This document shows, piece after piece, positions 25,232-34,339 of a stretch of 34,349 nucleotides of DNA; positions within the stretch are counted from its first letter, which is position 1, and every line of letters starts with the position of its first letter. The translations under genes and the position numbers were made by a program. This DNA is from Bacteroidales bacterium (GTDB lineage: Bacteria; Bacteroidota; Bacteroidia; Bacteroidales; UBA4181): NCBI GenBank assembly GCA_028700615.1, contig JAQVSH010000001.1, positions 1 to 34,349 on the forward strand, given 5' to 3'. The notes under the pieces are model-generated. The model made no database searches. It saw nothing but the letters and a program-made list of their open reading frames with translations, and was not told the DNA's origin.

Positions 25232-25294
25232 GGCTTATACAAAATTTAGGTTGAGAATGTGAGAATTTAAGTTGTTTATAACCCAAATTCGATG

Positions 25295-25382
25295 CGGAGA
25301 GAAAGGGATTCGAACCCTTGGTACCCTTTAGGAGTACACACGCTTTCCAGGCGTGCGCCTTCGACCACTCGGCCATCTCTCC
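25295..25382 (-). tRNA. tRNA-Ser (anticodon GGA), class II with long variable arm
   Basis: Reverse complement is GGAGAGATGGCCGAGTGGTCGAAGGCGCACGCCTGGAAAGCGTG...AAGGGTTCGAATCCCTTTCTCTCCG. The acceptor stem is 7 bp (GGAGAGA/TCTCTCC). The anticodon stem is CACGC/GCGTG with loop CTGGAAA. The T-arm is AAGGG-TTCGAAT-CCCTT. CCA is not fully encoded. Confidence 0.9.
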
Positions 25383-30193: not shown

Positions 30194-31123
30194 ATGGCCA
30201 ATCCCTACAACCTGATTGTCATCACAGGACCCACCGCGACCGGAAAAACATCCGTTGCCGCAAACCTCGCATTACAACTTGGAGGCGAAATAATCAGCGC
30301 AGACTCCAGACAGGTATACCGCGGGATGACACTTGGAACCGGCAAAGACCTGGCCGAATACACCATCGGCGACAAAAAAATCCCATACCACCTGATCGAC
30401 ATCGCCGATGCCGGCTACCAATACAACGTCTACGAATACCAACGCGACTTCCTAAAAGCCTTTGACCAAATCCAAAAAAGAAAAAACACCCCCATCCTCT
30501 GCGGAGGATCCGGACTATACCTCCAAGCCGCCATCGAAGGCTACCGCCTCATCAGCGTACCACCCGACCCCGCCCTCAGAGCAACCCTTGAACAACAAAG
30601 CGACCAGACCCTCATCGACCATTTGGCCTCCTTCAAAACACTCCACAACCACACCGACACCGACACCCGCAAACGACTCATCCGAGCCATAGAAATCGAA
30701 GAATACTACACCGCCCATCAAGTCACTGACAAAGAATACCCCCCCATCCATCCCCTCCTCATCGGAATCAACCTCGACCTCCAACTCCGTAGAGACCGCA
30801 TCACCCAAAGACTCCAACAAAGACTCGACCAAGGCATGATCGGCGAAGTCAAAACACTCCTTGACCAGGGACTCACCCCCGAACAAATAGAATACTACGG
30901 CCTTGAATATAAATTCATTGTTCGCCACCTCACCGGACAACTCGATTACCAACAAATGTTTCAGGGACTCAACACCGCCATTCACCAATTTGCCAAACGC
31001 CAAATGACCTGGTTCAGAAGAATGGAAAAAAACGGACACCACATCCACTGGATAGACGCAACCCTCCCCATGGACCACAAAATCCAACAAATTCTCACCC
31101 TCTTCCGGATGGAAAACAATTAA
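30194..31123 (+). CDS. miaA: tRNA dimethylallyltransferase (tRNA i6A37 synthase)
   Basis: Contains the VITGPTATGKTS P-loop, ISADSRQVYRGMTLGTGK and QFAKRQMTWFRR. Codon usage is highly atypical for this window (see findings). Confidence 0.93.
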   Translation: MANPYNLIVITGPTATGKTSVAANLALQLGGEIISADSRQVYRGMTLGTGKDLAEYTIGDKKIPYHLIDIADAGYQYNVYEYQRDFLKAFDQIQKRKNTPILCGGSGLYLQAAIEGYRLISVPPDPALRATLEQQSDQTLIDHLASFKTLHNHTDTDTRKRLIRAIEIEEYYTAHQVTDKEYPPIHPLLIGINLDLQLRRDRITQRLQQRLDQGMIGEVKTLLDQGLTPEQIEYYGLEYKFIVRHLTGQLDYQQMFQGLNTAIHQFAKRQMTWFRRMEKNGHHIHWIDATLPMDHKIQQILTLFRMENN

Positions 31124-31137
31124 AATCCATCCCCCTC

Positions 31138-31168
31138 CTTGCAAATCCCATCCATTTTTGTACATTTG
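31138..31168 (+). promoter_or_regulatory. Candidate Bacteroidota promoter for tRNA-Ser(GCT): cTTG (-33) N19 TACATTTG (-7)
   Basis: TACATTTG (31161-31168) matches TAnnTTTG. A TTG at 31139-31141 lies 19 nt upstream. The mature tRNA 5' end is at 31180. Confidence 0.4.
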
Positions 31169-31179
31169 CCTCACTTTTT

Positions 31180-31267
<88 letters not shown>

Positions 31268-31269
<2 letters not shown>

Positions 31270-31408
31270 AAAAGCCAACTCACGAAAAAGCAGCGATTCA
31301 TCGCTGCTTTTTTTATACACAAAGGCTGCTGAAAGCTTGCTTTCAAGCAGCCTTTTGTATAAAAATAAAGATTGCGAAGCAACTACTATTTCGTGAGTTG
31401 GCTTTTTG
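31268..31408. repeat. 141-bp non-coding element bounded by a perfect 20-bp inverted repeat, enclosing two hairpins
   Basis: CAAAAAGCCAACTCACGAAA (31268-31287) is the exact reverse complement of TTTCGTGAGTTGGCTTTTTG (31389-31408). The left arm starts inside the tRNA CCA end. The interior holds hairpins at 31285-31316 and 31321-31355. Confidence 0.7.
31285..31316 (+). terminator. Rho-independent terminator-like hairpin after tRNA-Ser(GCT)
   Basis: The stem gcagcga (31290-31296) pairs with tcgctgc (31301-31307) around the loop ttca. It is extended by A/T pairs and followed by a T-run (31308-31314). Confidence 0.65.
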
Positions 31409-31776
31409 AAGCCCTCCCCACAGGGGATCACGAGCGAAGCGAGTAATCCCCCCGTCCCTCCACCCGGACAGTCGATAAATTTTATTCTGAAATTTATTGA
31501 AAATCAATTCAAAAAAGATGCCCCCTAAAGGATACCTCTATGGATTTTTTTGTAAATTGCTATCCATAACAACTGCAGCATCGCATTGAAAAACACAGAC
31601 ATGAACTACGGAACTCTTTTCCCGTCTTTATTGGTATTTCCCTATCCTTTTTCTGAAAAGACCTCATTCGTCCAATCCGGATATAAACGCAATACATTTC
31701 GTTTGCACAAATGTTGTAGCCAATTTAAAAAAGCTCACTGTGCAAAAATCGAATATTCATTTGATAACTATAATTG

Positions 31777-31784
31777 TATATTTG
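31777..31784 (+). promoter_or_regulatory. Candidate -7 promoter box (TATATTTG) for the three-gene island operon
   Basis: Perfect TAnnTTTG match ending 4 nt before the ATG at 31789. A second near-match, TATAATTG, lies at 31769-31776. No correctly spaced -33 TTTG is seen. Confidence 0.3.
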
Positions 31785-31788
31785 TGAC

Positions 31789-32583
31789 ATGGGATACAAA
31801 GCAAGAAATTATACAGACCAAACAATAAAAAAGCTCTTTGGGCTTTCTGGTAATTTATGTGCCTTCCCGGGCTGTAATAATCGTTTGCTTAATGATAAAA
31901 ATGCTTTGGATTCAAATATTTGTCATATTGAAGCTGCAAATGAGGGTGGTGAGAGGTATAACCCCAATATGACAGACGAACAAAGAGCGGATTATGAAAA
32001 TCTCATCCTTTTATGCAGACAATGTCACGATAAGACAAATGATGAAAGTGTTTATACGGTTGAAGCATTAAAGGAAATGAAACGAATCCATGAAAGTAAT
32101 TACCTGAATCAACGTATTAACAACAATCCATCGATGCTGAAAAATGCAATCAATGCAATATCATTTATATCATTGGATGGCATTGATAAAATGGAATCTT
32201 TAAATACTTATAATCCCAAGGTTAAGTTAAATTATAACCAAGTGAAGTTTAATTTTTCTCTTATTCAAGAATATAAGGTTTATCATGAAAAGATAAATAT
32301 TTTGTATGATGAACTTGAAGCTCAGGGTTCAATAAAAAAGGAAAAATTATTATATAACATAGAACAATTGTACCTTAAAATAAAAGGAAAGTATGTTTTA
32401 GATTCTGATGAACCAATTGAAATAATTCGAAAGAACTCTGATAATATAATAAATGATATTTTTGATGAATTATATTTACGCTTGGGAAATTCTATTTTTT
32501 TTGATGAAGATATAATATTGGGTATTAGGTTAATAATGGTTGATGCATTTATTCGATGTAAAATTCTTGAAGAACCAAAATGA
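31789..32583 (+). CDS. HNH (beta-beta-alpha-Me) nuclease fused to a ~170-aa helical C-terminal domain; putative effector of a three-component ABC-ATPase conflict system
   Basis: The N-terminal ~90 aa carry CAFPGC...ICHIEAANEGGERYNP...YENLILLCRQCHDKTND. That is two Cys pairs forming a Zn knuckle, a catalytic His in HIEA, and Asn in NLILLC. The remainder looks helical by eye. The ATG at 31789 is preferred over the TTG at 31774. The stop overlaps the next start (ATGA). Confidence 0.75.
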   Translation: MGYKARNYTDQTIKKLFGLSGNLCAFPGCNNRLLNDKNALDSNICHIEAANEGGERYNPNMTDEQRADYENLILLCRQCHDKTNDESVYTVEALKEMKRIHESNYLNQRINNNPSMLKNAINAISFISLDGIDKMESLNTYNPKVKLNYNQVKFNFSLIQEYKVYHEKINILYDELEAQGSIKKEKLLYNIEQLYLKIKGKYVLDSDEPIEIIRKNSDNIINDIFDELYLRLGNSIFFDEDIILGIRLIMVDAFIRCKILEEPK

Positions 32584-32813
32584 TAATAAGCAAAGACATA
32601 AACCCAGAAAGAGATTATTATTATCTTGGAGCTAAGGTTATAGAAATACTTGCAAAAACAGAGGATAAAAAACACGACTATTTTTCGACTTTTGAAGAAT
32701 TAAAATCTTCTGAAAATATCTCTATTAGCCTATTTACACTTACTTTAGATTGGTTATTTTTATTAGGTGCTATTGACAAATCTGATAAGGGATTTATTAC
32801 AAAATGTTTCTAA
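32580..32813 (+). CDS. Small (77 aa) protein; putative middle component/adaptor of the three-component system
   Basis: Overlapping stop/start junctions on both sides (ATGA with the HNH gene, 10-nt overlap with the ATPase gene) suggest translational coupling. No TM segment or signal peptide. Contains the hydrophobic motif LTLDWLFLLGAI. The size and position match the 'middle component' of predicted ABC-3C operons. Confidence 0.6.
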   Translation: MIISKDINPERDYYYLGAKVIEILAKTEDKKHDYFSTFEELKSSENISISLFTLTLDWLFLLGAIDKSDKGFITKCF

Positions 32814-34339
32814 AAAAACTGAACATATATAATGAGGCTAAATTGGTTAGGGAAATACCTTTTCATAAAGGCATTAACCTGATTGTAGATGAAACTAAAT
32901 CACAAAACAAAACTGAATCTGGAAATAGTGTAGGTAAAACAACAGTTTTGAGATTAATAGATTTTTGTCTTGATGGTGATGGAAAAAATATTTATATCGA
33001 CCCAGAATTTAAGACTACCAACAAAAAAATTGAACAGTTTTTAAAGGAAAACAATATTCTAATATCTCTTACATTAGTTGAAAATATTGACGATTTAAAC
33101 TCGAAGGAAATTGTAATAGAGAGAAACTTTTTAAGTTATAAACATAAGATTCAAAGAGTAAATGGGGAATCATTAAACAATGATGATTTTCCTAAAATAT
33201 TGAAAGAATTAATTTTTAATACTCAAAGTGATAAGCCAACATTCAAACAACTAAAGTCGAAAAATATCCGTGATGAAAAGAATAAACTAATTCATACTCT
33301 TAAAGTATTGGATGCTTTTACGACAGGTGTTGAGTATGAATTACTTTTCTTATTTTGGCTTGGCATTGATACAGATAGCTCAAAAGATAAGCTTGTTAGA
33401 GATAAAAATCTCGAAGAAAAATTACAAACTCGCCTTCGAAAAGAAAGTAATTTGTCTCAAATTAATCAATCTCTTATTATTGTAAATAAGGAGATTGCTG
33501 AGTTAAATAGAAAAAAAGAGTCTTTTAATCTAAATGAAAAATACGAAGAAGAACTTCAACATCTTAATCAAATCAAATTAAAAATAAATCAAGTATCTAC
33601 TAAGCTTTCTCGTCTTGAGTTGCGAAAGGAATTAATTATTGAGAGTAAAATAAATCTGGAACAGGATTTTGCTGAAATTGATACTGAGCAGATTAAAAGA
33701 ATGTATGATAAGGCTAAATCATTAATTCCAAATATTCAAAAAACATTTGAACAGACTTTGTCTTTTCACAATGAGATGATTCAGCAAAAAATTTCATATA
33801 TAACTGAGGAACTTCCTAGTTTAGAGCACGAGATAAATAAGGAAAAAAGAAATCTCAACTCTTTTATTCTTCAGGAGAAATCCCTTTCGGAATCATTAAA
33901 TAAAGCAGGAGCTATAGATGACCTTCAAATTATTATCAATGAATTAAATTCTTTTTATGAGAGGAAAGGTAATCTTGAAGAACAAAAGCGACTATGGGAA
34001 AAATCGAACGATAATTTAAATCAAATCAATAATAAACTAGATGTGATAAATAAAAGCATCCTATCGAAAGATGAATTGATACAGAAACGGATTGAAGAAT
34101 TTAATGTGTTTTTTTCAGATATATCAAGTAGGTTGGATGGATTGTATTCATTATTAAGTGCAGAAAATGAAGATGGTGTTTATAAATTTAAAATAGGAAA
34201 TATTGAAGGAAATCCAGGCACTGGTAGTAAAAAAAGTCAAATGGCATCTTTTGACTTAGCATATATTAAATTTGCAGACTCTCTTGGTATTCCTTGTCTT
34301 CACTTTGTATCGCAAGACCAAATTGAAAATGTTCACTGA
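32804..34339 (+). CDS. ABC/SMC-like ATPase with long coiled-coil insert (DUF2326-like); possibly truncated or split at its 3' end
   Basis: The N-terminal ABC head is FLKKLNIYN...IPFHKGINLIVDE...SGNSVGKTTVLRLIDFCL, which includes Walker A. Heptad-rich coiled coil spans about 230 aa (roughly aa 195-430). The C-terminus has GTGSKKSQMASFDLAY (signature-like) and IPCLHFVSQD (Walker-B-like). The ORF stops 6 codons later, 10 nt before the window end. Confidence 0.7.
   Translation: MFLKKLNIYNEAKLVREIPFHKGINLIVDETKSQNKTESGNSVGKTTVLRLIDFCLDGDGKNIYIDPEFKTTNKKIEQFLKENNILISLTLVENIDDLNSKEIVIERNFLSYKHKIQRVNGESLNNDDFPKILKELIFNTQSDKPTFKQLKSKNIRDEKNKLIHTLKVLDAFTTGVEYELLFLFWLGIDTDSSKDKLVRDKNLEEKLQTRLRKESNLSQINQSLIIVNKEIAELNRKKESFNLNEKYEEELQHLNQIKLKINQVSTKLSRLELRKELIIESKINLEQDFAEIDTEQIKRMYDKAKSLIPNIQKTFEQTLSFHNEMIQQKISYITEELPSLEHEINKEKRNLNSFILQEKSLSESLNKAGAIDDLQIIINELNSFYERKGNLEEQKRLWEKSNDNLNQINNKLDVINKSILSKDELIQKRIEEFNVFFSDISSRLDGLYSLLSAENEDGVYKFKIGNIEGNPGTGSKKSQMASFDLAYIKFADSLGIPCLHFVSQDQIENVH

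What the first reader, a model, noticed from the sequence alone, without database searches (positions are those of the whole stretch)
31789..34339. HNH nuclease, 77-aa protein and coiled-coil ABC ATPase: candidate three-component (ABC-3C / Lamassu-like) anti-phage system
Seen in sequence: three co-oriented ORFs have overlapping stop/start junctions (ATGA at 32580-32583; 10-nt overlap at 32804-32813), which implies one operon and probably a stoichiometric complex.
- Gene 1 is an HNH nuclease: a Cys4 knuckle (C-x4-C ... C-x2-C-H), a catalytic His in ICHIEAA and Asn in NLILLC. It is fused to a ~170-aa helical C-terminal domain ending MVDAFIRCKILEEP.
- Gene 2 is a 77-aa soluble protein.
- Gene 3 has an ABC/Rad50/SMC-type N-terminal head with Walker A (SGNSVGKTT), a ~230-aa coiled coil, and then signature-like and Walker-B-like motifs.

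Established knowledge: the order effector-with-CTD, small middle component, coiled-coil ABC ATPase is the architecture predicted in silico for 'ABC-three-component' systems (Krishnan, Burroughs, Iyer and Aravind comparative genomics). It parallels the experimentally validated Lamassu (LmuA effector, LmuC small protein, LmuB SMC-like ATPase) and Septu (PtuA ATPase plus PtuB HNH) systems.

Inference: the ATPase and middle protein sense foreign DNA and hold the HNH effector in check through its C-terminal domain. Release or activation would then cause DNA cleavage or abortive infection. I know of no experimental work on this HNH/DUF2326-type variant. The operon sits in an AT-rich island next to a tRNA gene, which fits accessory defence cargo.
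Basis: partly seen in the sequence, partly recalled or inferred. Interest (0 to 1): 0.9.

Follow-up and report, generated by a model that had tools for sequence, protein, structure and literature searches.

The report
HNH-type short Lamassu (ABC-3C) defence cassette
This is a horizontally acquired three-gene cassette of the already catalogued Lamassu / ABC-three-component family of candidate anti-phage systems, here with an HNH nuclease effector, and its ATPase gene is cut short by a stop codon 11 bases before the contig ends.

Summary
Three overlapping, co-oriented genes lie at 31789-34339. Gene 1 is a Cap5/SPARHA-type HNH nuclease fused to Pfam CTD10. Gene 2 is Pfam MC6. Gene 3 is a Walker-A, coiled-coil, SMC/Rad50-like ATPase of the DUF2326/YydD clade.

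The same gene order occurs in 73 of 80 genome loci from many phyla. The 10-nt gene 2/gene 3 overlap is kept in 67 of those 73. G+C is below the flanks in 75 of 76 loci, and no fourth gene is conserved. A sister clade replaces HNH with a SMEK domain on the same chassis.

Pfam and NCBI already name these parts. PADLOC lists a related candidate, PDC-M68. A 2025 PNAS survey lists HNH and SMEK among "short Lamassu" effectors. I found no experimental test of the HNH subtype.

One correction: gene 3 here is 511 aa, against 562-565 aa in most relatives. TGA replaces a conserved Ser codon 11 nt from the contig end. This is either an assembly error or a real inactivating mutation.

The likely mechanism, by analogy only, is that the ATPase and MC6 sequester the effector's C-terminal domain. 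DNA-end sensing then releases it, and the HNH domains oligomerise and cleave DNA.

The parts
31710..31788 (+). Upstream region shared with the closest cassettes. It marks the left edge of the transferred unit and is the probable promoter region.
   Evidence: Alignment with L001-L006. Similarity to L002-L006 starts at about 31710, and the DNA further upstream is unrelated. The promoter assignment is inference only: the sigma-70 scan gave nothing above chance.
31789..32583 (+). Gene 1, the effector (LmuA-like), 264 aa: an N-terminal HNH nuclease plus C-terminal domain CTD10.
   Evidence: Pfam HNH and CTD10. PADLOC CBASS-type HNH effectors and PDC-M68A, N-terminal half only. AlphaFold2 model with pLDDT 79.6.
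31801..32127 (+). HNH (His-Me finger) domain of gene 1, residues 5-113. Catalytic H46, N71 and H80; zinc ligands C24, C29, C76 and C79.
   Evidence: Invariant columns. Profile matches to SPARHA HNH 9om4_A (E 1.5e-13) and to SAVED-domain HNH proteins, including Cap5 chains 7rwm and 7rwk. Foldseek matches to Cap5 and McrA. Beta-beta-alpha elements E44-46, E72-74 and H77-82 in the model.
32167..32571 (+). CTD10 domain of gene 1, residues 127-261, all-helical. It is the predicted docking and oligomerisation domain.
   Evidence: PF20275, E 7.8e-9, above the gathering score. Foldseek match to chain B (481 residues) of the YydD-YydB integrative model 9a6c (TMq 0.43, 147 columns); which part of that chain aligns was not checked. 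The same CTD10 follows a SMEK domain in the sister clade.
32580..32813 (+). Gene 2, the middle component (LmuC-like), 77 aa, family MC6.
   Evidence: PF20293, E 5.4e-15. Present immediately upstream of the ATPase gene, usually with the 10-nt overlap, in related loci. Alignment A8.
32804..34339 (+). Gene 3, the SMC/Rad50-like ABC ATPase (LmuB-like, DUF2326/YydD clade). It is truncated at residue 511; nearly all full-length relatives are 562-565 aa.
32921..32944 (+). Walker A motif G40-N-S-V-G-K45-T-T47 of gene 3.
   Evidence: Sequence. Invariant columns.
34310..34312 (+). TCG (Ser) where relatives have TTG. Leu503 is invariant or nearly so in the family and sits in the Walker B strand.
34337..34339 (+). 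TGA stop where the closest cassettes have TCA (Ser512). It removes the last 52 residues, including invariant Q529, D537, K538 and P540 and two predicted core strands.
   Evidence: The TGA variant was not found in JGI metagenome contigs.

Best explanation
The locus is a horizontally acquired three-gene cassette of the ABC-three-component (ABC-3C) / type II "short Lamassu" family.
- Gene 1 is the LmuA-like effector, a Cap5/SPARHA-clade HNH nuclease fused to CTD10.
- Gene 2 is the LmuC-like middle component (MC6).
- Gene 3 is the LmuB-like SMC/Rad50-type ATPase (DUF2326/YydD clade, short coiled coil, no CxxC zinc hook).

Shown here: the domain identities, the fixed gene order and overlaps, co-inheritance across phyla, the foreign base composition, and an effector swap (HNH to SMEK) on the same CTD10-MC6-ATPase chassis.

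Inferred by analogy with solved Lamassu complexes:
- Two ATPase protomers plus one MC6 hold one effector monomer by its CTD10, which keeps the nuclease inactive.
- Binding of free double-stranded DNA ends or replication intermediates of an invader, together with ATP, releases the effector.
- The free effectors oligomerise, bringing HNH domains together into an active site that cuts DNA without sequence specificity. This aborts the infection.

In this contig the ATPase reading frame stops 52 codons early, 11 nt from the contig end. This copy is therefore either mis-assembled at its end or inactivated.

My confidence is about 0.9 for the classification and about 0.5-0.6 for the mechanism.
For: Classification:
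- Pfam CTD10, MC6 and HNH score above their gathering cut-offs.
- DUF2326 is found in the 98%-identical full-length relative.
- PADLOC gives PDC-M68B and an end-to-end LmuB match, E 9e-8.
- The AlphaFold2 ATPase model (pLDDT 79.2) matches YydD (E 9e-22), the SMC head 5xei (1e-12) and Salmonella LmuB 9hqx_B/9hqu_A (1e-10).

Unit character:
- 73 of 80 genome loci from Bacteroidota, Campylobacterota, Proteobacteria, Spirochaetota, Planctomycetota, Firmicutes and others carry gene 1, gene 2 and gene 3 in the same order.
- The 10-nt gene 2/gene 3 overlap is kept in 67 of the 73.
- Pairwise identities of the three proteins correlate (Spearman rho 0.70-0.85).
- No fourth gene is conserved within 2 kb.
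- Operon G+C is below the flanks in 75 of 76 loci.
- Different flanks surround 98%-identical ATPase genes.
- The sister clade has SMEK_N + CTD10 + MC6 + DUF2326.

Mechanism by analogy:
- Lamassu forms an LmuA1-B2-C1 complex that sequesters LmuA. It senses double-stranded DNA ends, and LmuA then tetramerises through its C-terminal domain (bioRxiv 10.1101/2025.03.14.643221; PMC12663957).
- The HNH domain belongs to the Cap5/SPARHA clade.
- PMC12738770 reports that this clade is activated by tetramerisation, and it names ABC-3C effectors as members.
- PDB entry 9a6c, whose title describes an integrative model from crosslinking mass spectrometry and deep learning, pairs a DUF2326 ATPase (YydD) with YydB. 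Chain B of that entry matched the gene 1 model (TMq 0.43).
Against: - Nothing functional was measured here, and I found no published test of an HNH-type system.
- Sequence profiles of the ATPase, MC6 and CTD10 find no LmuB, LmuC or LmuA chain among solved structures.
- Foldseek similarity of gene 1 to a chain of the type II Lamassu LmuACB entry 9uxh (chain C) is negligible (E 3.8).
- The ATPase resembles LmuB no more closely than it resembles SMC heads in general.
- The glutamate that PMC12738770 reports as bridging HNH dimers in SPARHA aligns with an invariant Asn (N43) here. A Cap5-like tetramer interface is therefore not demonstrated.
- The neighbourhood census of 21 loci (125 ORFs) showed only a few restriction-modification methyltransferases and mostly housekeeping genes. 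Defence-island enrichment was not shown here.
- The window copy lacks the ATPase C-terminus.
Confidence: 0.75

Rival explanations
1. The cassette in this genome is a decaying pseudogene. A real nonsense mutation (S512 to stop) together with L503S has inactivated the ATPase, so the locus is a remnant and not a working system.
For: - TGA replaces TCA and TCG replaces TTG at conserved positions.
- The lost 52 residues carry invariant Q529, D537, K538 and P540 and two predicted core strands.
- About 8 of 80 related loci also show split or shortened genes: L009, L011, L019, L024, L051, L063, L076.
Against: - Elsewhere gene 3 differs from L002 at 25 synonymous and only 9 non-synonymous codons, all mild changes. 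That pattern fits ongoing purifying selection.
- Both damaging changes fall within the last 40 nt of the contig, where assembly errors concentrate.
- Genes 1 and 2 are intact.
- No second contig carries the TGA variant.
Confidence: 0.35
2. The early stop and the L503S change are assembly or consensus errors at the contig end. On this reading the organism carries an intact 563-aa ATPase gene and a functional cassette.
For: - The two changes lie 11 and 38 nt from the end of a MAG contig.
- They hit a position that is invariant or nearly so (L503) and one that is at least 90% conserved (S512), while the rest of the gene looks constrained.
- The aligned DNA is otherwise in register with L002, L003 and L006 up to the last base.
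Against: No independent read-level evidence is available. The only other contig of this strain, L001, stops at codon 42 of gene 3.
Confidence: 0.5
3. It is a Septu-like system, in which an ATPase (PtuA) works directly with an HNH nuclease (PtuB), and not a Lamassu-like one.
For: It has an ATPase plus an HNH nuclease.
Against: - No PtuA or PtuB model matched any of the three proteins at E <= 1.
- The HNH domain belongs to the Cap5/SPARHA clade. PMC12738770 discusses this clade separately from the Septu HNH.
- The ATPase has an SMC-like coiled coil.
- An obligatory small middle gene and a Pfam ABC-3C C-terminal domain are present.
Confidence: 0.03
4. The cassette is not an immune system. It could be a mobile DNA-repair or recombination module descended from SbcCD/Rad50-Mre11, or a selfish addiction module that is kept because losing it is toxic.
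For: - The ATPase fold also matches Rad50 and SMC repair and maintenance proteins.
- PMC12663957 derives Lamassu from SbcCD.
- Flanking genes in my census are mostly housekeeping.
- No phenotype is known.
Against: - The effector module is swapped (HNH to SMEK) on a constant sensor chassis, which is typical of conflict systems.
- The cassette is patchily distributed, AT-rich and horizontally spread across phyla.
- The related PADLOC candidate PDC-M68 comes from a screen for genes embedded in known defence systems.
- Experimentally validated Lamassu relatives are anti-phage and anti-plasmid.
Confidence: 0.07

Closest known systems
Type II 'short' Lamassu: Vibrio cholerae DdmABC (= LmuA/LmuC/LmuB) and Salmonella enterica LmuACB
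   Same: - Gene order is effector-with-CTD, then a small middle protein, then an SMC-like ATPase.
- The ATPase has a Walker A motif, a short coiled coil and no zinc hook. Its Walker B reads F-V-L-Q-D505-Q, with Gln in place of the catalytic Glu. PMC12663957 reports hhhhD[Q/S/T/E] for short LmuB.
- The ATPase fold matches LmuB chains 9hqx_B and 9hqu_A, and a PADLOC LmuB model matches end to end.
- PMC12663957 lists HNH and SMEK among short-Lamassu effectors.
   Different: - The effector is an HNH nuclease, not a Cap4 nuclease.
- The C-terminal domain is CTD10, against CTD7 in V. cholerae. The middle component is MC6, against MC3.
- No sequence-level match to solved LmuA, LmuB or LmuC chains was found.
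- No experimental data exist for this subtype.
ABC-3C systems of Krishnan, Burroughs, Iyer and Aravind (2020), as encoded in Pfam CTD10 / MC6 / DUF2326
   Same: All three Pfam families that define this sub-architecture are matched above their gathering scores. DUF2326 is matched in the full-length relative. NCBI already names homologues 'ABC-three component system protein' and 'middle component 6'.
   Different: Nothing differs in architecture. I could not read the original paper: it is not held. What it says is therefore taken from Pfam descriptions and from papers that cite it.
Bacillus subtilis YydD with YydB (PDB integrative model 9a6c)
   Same: - The ATPase model's best structural match is YydD (E 9e-22).
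- The gene 1 model matches chain B of 9a6c (TMq 0.43).
- JGI labels homologues 'YydD (DUF2326 family)'.
   Different: Sequence identity to YydD is only 17%. The domain content of YydB was not examined here, and its function is uncharacterised as far as I could find.
SMEK-CTD10 / MC6 / DUF2326 sister cassettes (Firmicutes, Campylobacterota, some plasmids)
   Same: They share CTD10, MC6 and the ATPase (about 40% identity), with the same gene order.
   Different: The N-terminal effector is a SMEK domain, not HNH. This clade also reaches a few plasmids and four IMG/VR contigs. The HNH clade was found in neither phage collection and has no close relative on plasmids: the plasmid hits reached at most 40% identity, and their effector genes were not examined.
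CBASS Cap5 and SPARHA HNH effectors
   Same: They belong to the same HNH clade. It has an N-terminal helix, a C-x4-C element, the catalytic His in an (I)(A/C)HI motif, and NLILLC..HH. These nucleases are reported to be activated by tetramerisation.
   Different: The sensor is an SMC-like ATPase with a middle component, not a SAVED domain or a short Argonaute. The SPARHA dimer-bridging Glu aligns with an invariant Asn (N43) here.
PADLOC candidate PDC-M68 (two-gene cassette from the 'guilt-by-embedding' screen)
   Same: It gives the best PADLOC match for both large genes: A, E 6.5e-28; B, E 3.5e-34.
   Different: Gene 1 matches only positions 2-115 of the 253-position PDC-M68A model, which is the HNH half, so the C-terminal domain differs. 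PDC-M68 is defined by two families with no middle component. It is listed only as a candidate.

Membership tests
ABC-3C (Pfam CTD10 / MC6 / DUF2326 architecture) | The effector protein ends in an ABC-3C C-terminal domain (CTD10). | tested here: met
   PF20275, 36.6 bits against a cut-off of 28.1, residues 127-261. The domain is precomputed for all 120 listed homologues.
ABC-3C (Pfam CTD10 / MC6 / DUF2326 architecture) | A small middle component lies between the effector and ATPase genes. | tested here: met
   PF20293 MC6, 55.6 bits against 27.2. The position is conserved in 73 loci.
ABC-3C (Pfam CTD10 / MC6 / DUF2326 architecture) | A coiled-coil ABC ATPase of the DUF2326 type. | tested here: inconclusive
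   The window copy has no DUF2326 hit because its C-terminus is cut. The 98%-identical full-length relative P0002 scores 54 bits against 28.7. Walker A and the coiled coil are present.
Lamassu (type II / short) | An SMC/Rad50-like LmuB ATPase with a Walker A motif and a coiled-coil insertion. | tested here: met
   Foldseek matches to LmuB 9hqx_B and 9hqu_A (E 1e-10) and to SMC heads. PADLOC LmuB model PDLC03859, E 9e-8, over residues 1-548 of P0002.
Lamassu (type II / short) | LmuA consists of an N-terminal effector domain plus a C-terminal domain that docks on LmuB and LmuC. | tested here: inconclusive
   The domain layout is met. Structural similarity to a chain of a solved LmuACB complex is negligible (9uxh_C, E 3.8). 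Docking was not modelled because no multimer tool was available.
Lamassu (type II / short) | A small LmuC protein is present. | tested here: inconclusive
   A 77-aa protein sits at the right position. No PADLOC LmuC model matched, and no solved LmuC chain matched the MC6 profile.
Lamassu (type II / short) | An A1-B2-C1 complex, activation by DNA ends, and anti-phage or anti-plasmid activity that depends on Walker A and the effector active site. | not testable with these tools
   This needs biochemistry and phage assays. No paper in the library reports it for an HNH subtype.
Septu (PtuA/PtuB) | A PtuA-type ATPase paired with a PtuB-type HNH nuclease. | tested here: not met
   No PtuA or PtuB model appears among the PADLOC hits at E <= 1 for any of the three proteins.
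PADLOC candidate PDC-M68 | Full-length matches to both PDC-M68A and PDC-M68B. | tested here: inconclusive
   Model B is matched over positions 9-497 of 581. Model A is matched only over positions 2-115 of 253, the HNH half.
HNH (His-Me finger) nuclease, Cap5/SPARHA clade | A beta-beta-alpha-metal fold with a catalytic His, an Asn, a second His, and zinc ligands. | tested here: met
   H46, N71, H80, C24, C29 and C76 are invariant. The model shows E44-46, E72-74 and H77-82. Matches to 9om4_A (E 1.5e-13) and to Cap5 chains.

The most novel reading that the evidence does not exclude
The HNH/CTD10 branch of short Lamassu may not simply copy the Cap4-type mechanism.
- Its C-terminal domain and middle component have no detectable sequence similarity to solved LmuA and LmuC chains. 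By fold, gene 1 gave only a negligible match to an LmuACB chain; MC6 was not modelled.
- The dimer-bridging Glu of SPARHA aligns with an invariant Asn here.
- Between otherwise near-identical cassettes the HNH domain is far more diverged (about 70-75% against 97-100% nucleotide identity).

This leaves room for a different activation geometry, or for effector alleles that are exchanged under pressure from phage inhibitors.
Probability: 0.1. Interest if true: 0.5.

Novelty: new member of a known kind. Interest (0 to 1): 0.25.

Why it matters
This locus adds one more example, incomplete at the contig end, of a widespread and already catalogued defence architecture.

Its practical value is modest:
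- The HNH-type short Lamassu is abundant. More than 1,100 gene 1 relatives and more than 4,000 ATPase relatives were detected.
- It is compact, about 2.6 kb, and self-contained.
- It is apparently untested, so a full-length relative from a cultured strain would be an easy candidate. It could show whether the Lamassu sequester-and-release switch also controls His-Me finger nucleases.

For genome annotation, the lesson is that the 511-aa ATPase ORF here should not be taken as the native protein.

Tried and rejected
- Exact-protein look-ups to extend the contig failed. Gene 2 occurs on only one other contig, of 1.36 kb. The 511-aa gene 3 product is on record nowhere else.
- Two metagenome scans, one for a strain-specific 52-mer and one for the TGA variant, found nothing. 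The stop codon could therefore not be confirmed or refuted.
- Sequence-profile searches of the ATPase, MC6 and gene 1 against PDB chains found no Lamassu component. The ATPase gave only coiled-coil noise, and gene 1 gave only HNH matches.
- The Krishnan et al. 2020 paper could not be read.
- Literature searches for DUF2326, PDC-M68, YydD and YydB returned nothing relevant to function.
- A defence-island census of 125 flanking ORFs from 21 loci showed no conserved neighbour and only sporadic methyltransferases. I do not claim defence-island enrichment from my own data.
- tRNA-targeted integration was considered. No tRNA flanks the cassette in eight related loci, and the right end is missing here, so it is unsupported.
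- The sigma-70 promoter and terminator scan of 31100-32000 gave nothing above chance.
- Septu membership was rejected.
- Phage carriage was rejected for the HNH clade.

Full report
**1. Observation**

The three ORFs exist as described.
- Gene 1 runs 31789-32583 (264 aa).
- Gene 2 runs 32580-32813 (77 aa).
- Gene 3 runs 32804-34339 (511 aa).

The ATGA junction at 32580-32583 and the 10-nt overlap at 32804-32813 can be read directly. The alternative TTG start at 31774 is not used by relatives, which begin MG or MS at the ATG.

The operon has 27-28% G+C, against about 38-49% in the rest of the window. It lies about 520 nt downstream of tRNA-Ser(GCT) at 31180-31269. The window to the left is ordinary chromosome: UbiD, the cell-wall and division cluster (FtsI, MurE, MraY through FtsA and FtsZ), glutamate dehydrogenase, DprA and MiaA.

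**2. A correction to the coordinates**

The window is the complete 34,349-nt contig of a Bacteroidales MAG. Nearly all full-length homologues of gene 3 are 562-565 aa.

Three contigs (L002, L003, L006) carry an ATPase that is 98% identical. Aligned with them, the window reads TGA at 34337-34339 where they read TCA (Ser512). It reads TCG at 34310-34312 where they read TTG (Leu503).
- Leu503 is invariant or nearly so, and Ser512 is at least 90% conserved, in alignments of 12, 14 and 32 sequences.
- The missing 52 residues include invariant Q529, D537, K538 and P540 and two predicted core strands.
- Elsewhere, gene 3 differs from L002 at 25 synonymous and 9 mild non-synonymous codons.
- Two damaging changes confined to the last 40 nt of a contig look more like an end-of-contig error than decay.
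- Decayed copies do exist, however, in roughly 8 of 80 related loci.
- I could not find another copy of this strain's 3' end.

I put an assembly error at about 0.5 and a true pseudogene at about 0.35.

**3. What the genes are**

*Gene 1.*
- It matches Pfam HNH and CTD10, "C-terminal domain 10 of the ABC-three component systems".
- C24, C29, C45, H46, N71, C76 and H80 are invariant in 31 homologues. Position 79 is Cys here but usually His.
- The AlphaFold2 model (pLDDT 79.6) shows the beta-beta-alpha core followed by an all-helical C-terminal domain.
- By sequence profile, the HNH domain matches the SPARHA nuclease 9om4_A (E 1.5e-13) and SAVED-domain HNH proteins, including Cap5 chains 7rwm and 7rwk.
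- By fold, it matches Cap5 and McrA.
- The gene 1 model also matches chain B of the integrative YydD-YydB model 9a6c (TMq 0.43, 147 columns).

*Gene 2.*
- It matches Pfam MC6, "ABC-3C middle component 6" (E 5e-15).

*Gene 3.*
- It has no Pfam hit in the window copy because DUF2326 covers the missing C-terminus. P0002 matches DUF2326.
- PADLOC gives PDC-M68B (E 3.5e-34) and, for P0002, an end-to-end LmuB match (E 9e-8).
- The model of P0002 (pLDDT 79.2) has a split ABC head with about 250 residues of coiled coil.
- Its best PDB matches are YydD (E 9e-22), an SMC head (1e-12), Salmonella LmuB (1e-10), then cohesin, Smc5/6 and Rad50.
- Conserved motifs are Walker A G40-x4-G-K45-T-T, Q149, the signature-like G474 and K476, and D505-x2-E508-x2-H511. 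H511 is invariant in two of the three alignments and at least 90% conserved in the third. Gln, not Glu, follows the Walker B Asp.
- P0002 has only three cysteines and no CxxC, so there is no zinc hook.

**4. Is it one unit?**

A scan of species-representative genomes returned 80 loci. They come from Bacteroidota, Campylobacterota, Gamma- and Desulfobacterota, Spirochaetota, Planctomycetota, Omnitrophota, Nitrospirota, Firmicutes, a Parcubacteria MAG and one archaeal MAG. ATPase identities of 64-79% extend across phyla.
- All three genes are present in the same order in 73 loci. Most of the remaining loci lack gene 1 or gene 2 because the contig ends there.
- The 10-nt gene 2/gene 3 overlap is kept in 67 of the 73. 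Pairwise identities of the three proteins correlate (Spearman rho 0.85, 0.70, 0.75).
- No other gene family recurs within 2 kb in more than 4 of 79 loci.
- Operon G+C is below the flanks in 75 of 76 loci, by 8.6 points on average.
- Against L002-L006, similarity starts about 80 nt upstream of gene 1 (about 31710), and the flanks are unrelated.
- A clade whose ATPase is about 40% identical carries SMEK_N + CTD10, MC6 and DUF2326. This is an effector swap on the same chassis.
- Plasmid hits reach at most 40% identity, and at least three of them have an adjacent MC6 gene. Four IMG/VR contigs carry an ATPase about 38% identical. There are no GenBank phage matches.

**5. Mechanism**

Nothing functional can be shown here. 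The closest characterised systems are type II Lamassu.
- In Salmonella and Vibrio cholerae, one LmuA is held by two LmuB protomers and one LmuC through its C-terminal oligomerisation domain.
- Double-stranded DNA ends are sensed, and LmuA is then released and forms a tetramer that assembles a nuclease site.
- The HNH clade found here (Cap5, SPARHA) is also reported to be switched on by tetramerisation. The SPARHA paper names ABC-3C effectors as members of that clade and predicts the same for them.

I therefore favour sequestration of CTD10 by ATPase2-MC6, DNA-end and ATP-dependent release, then oligomerisation and non-specific DNA cleavage. My confidence in this mechanism is about 0.5-0.6.

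Four caveats apply:
- CTD10 and MC6 show no detectable sequence similarity to solved LmuA or LmuC chains.
- By fold, the gene 1 model gave only a negligible match to a chain of a solved LmuACB complex. MC6 was not modelled.
- The ATPase is no closer to LmuB than to SMC heads.
- The SPARHA dimer-bridging Glu aligns with an invariant Asn43 here.

**6. Comparison with what is known**

- The literature equates type II Lamassu with ABC-3C. The V. cholerae LmuA carries CTD7 and its LmuC carries MC3. This cassette uses CTD10 and MC6.
- The 2025 PNAS survey divides Lamassu into long and short types. It lists HNH, SMEK and lipase as short-type effectors. It reports a Walker B of hhhhD[Q/S/T/E] and zero to two zinc hooks in short LmuB. 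These features fit this ATPase.
- That survey experimentally tested the Cap4 and lipase systems, not HNH.
- PADLOC's PDC-M68 is a related two-family candidate from the "guilt-by-embedding" screen. It is listed only as a candidate, and its A model matches only the HNH half of gene 1.
- No Septu model matched.
- NCBI already annotates homologues as "ABC-three component system protein", "middle component 6" and "DUF2326 domain-containing protein".

**7. Verdict**

This is a new member of a known, catalogued but experimentally untested subtype, and in this contig it is incomplete at its 3' end. A specialist would not be surprised by it. I score interest at 0.25.

The most novel reading still open is that the HNH/CTD10 branch uses a different activation geometry, or exchanges effector alleles under phage pressure (probability about 0.1). 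It rests on the lack of similarity to solved LmuA and LmuC chains. It also rests on the strongly diverged HNH domain between otherwise near-identical cassettes.

Noticed in passing
window 31789-32583 against L002 2971-3765: The cassette is a mosaic relative to its closest relative. Genes 2 and 3 differ from L002 by 2.1-2.3% of nucleotides, but gene 1 differs by 14.5% (58 synonymous and 30 non-synonymous codons). The divergence is concentrated in the HNH domain (31829-32068, about 65-85% identity per 60 nt) and fades across CTD10. This suggests recombination or allele exchange of the nuclease domain.
   Followed up: partly
window 31268-31408: A nested palindromic structure lies directly 3' of tRNA-Ser. 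Its 26-nt outer arms (31268-31293 and 31383-31408) are 92% complementary and enclose two hairpins (31285-31312 and 31310-31365). It could be a pair of terminators or a small repeat element. It is not part of the DNA shared with other cassettes.
   Followed up: no
window 31759-31786: TTTG at 31759-31762 and TATATTTG at 31779-31786 resemble, from my own knowledge, the Bacteroidota -33/-7 promoter consensus. They lie within the 80 nt conserved with L002-L006. If used, they would put the transcription start at or next to the ATG, giving a leaderless or near-leaderless mRNA. The sigma-70 scan is not designed for this promoter type.
   Followed up: no
L007 3302-4264, 5622-6584, 10849-11811 (all minus strand): Three 100% identical IS110-family transposase ORFs bracket the cassette in a Bacteroidales chromosome, two upstream and one downstream. 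This hints at IS-mediated mobility in that genome.
   Followed up: no
L071 3175-4734 and 5225-7179: In a Tannerella MAG contig, the MC6 and ATPase genes are preceded by a 519-aa ORF and a gap of about 490 nt, not by an HNH or SMEK effector. It may be a third effector type. Its domains were not examined.
   Followed up: no
L002-L006, downstream of the ATPase gene: The closest cassettes are followed by an XRE-type HTH gene. In L003 there is also a Gp49 (weak Pfam hit) / dnstrm_HI1420 gene pair, which may be a toxin-antitoxin pair. An 85-aa ORF is present in L004-L006 but absent in L002 and L003. The right flank is missing in the window.
   Followed up: no
window 25294-25382 (minus strand): A second tRNA-Ser gene (anticodon GGA) lies in the core part of the window.
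   Followed up: no
L009, L011, L019, L024, L051, L063, L076: About 8 of 80 related loci carry a split or shortened gene 1 or gene 3. Decayed or mis-assembled copies of this cassette are therefore not rare.
   Followed up: partly
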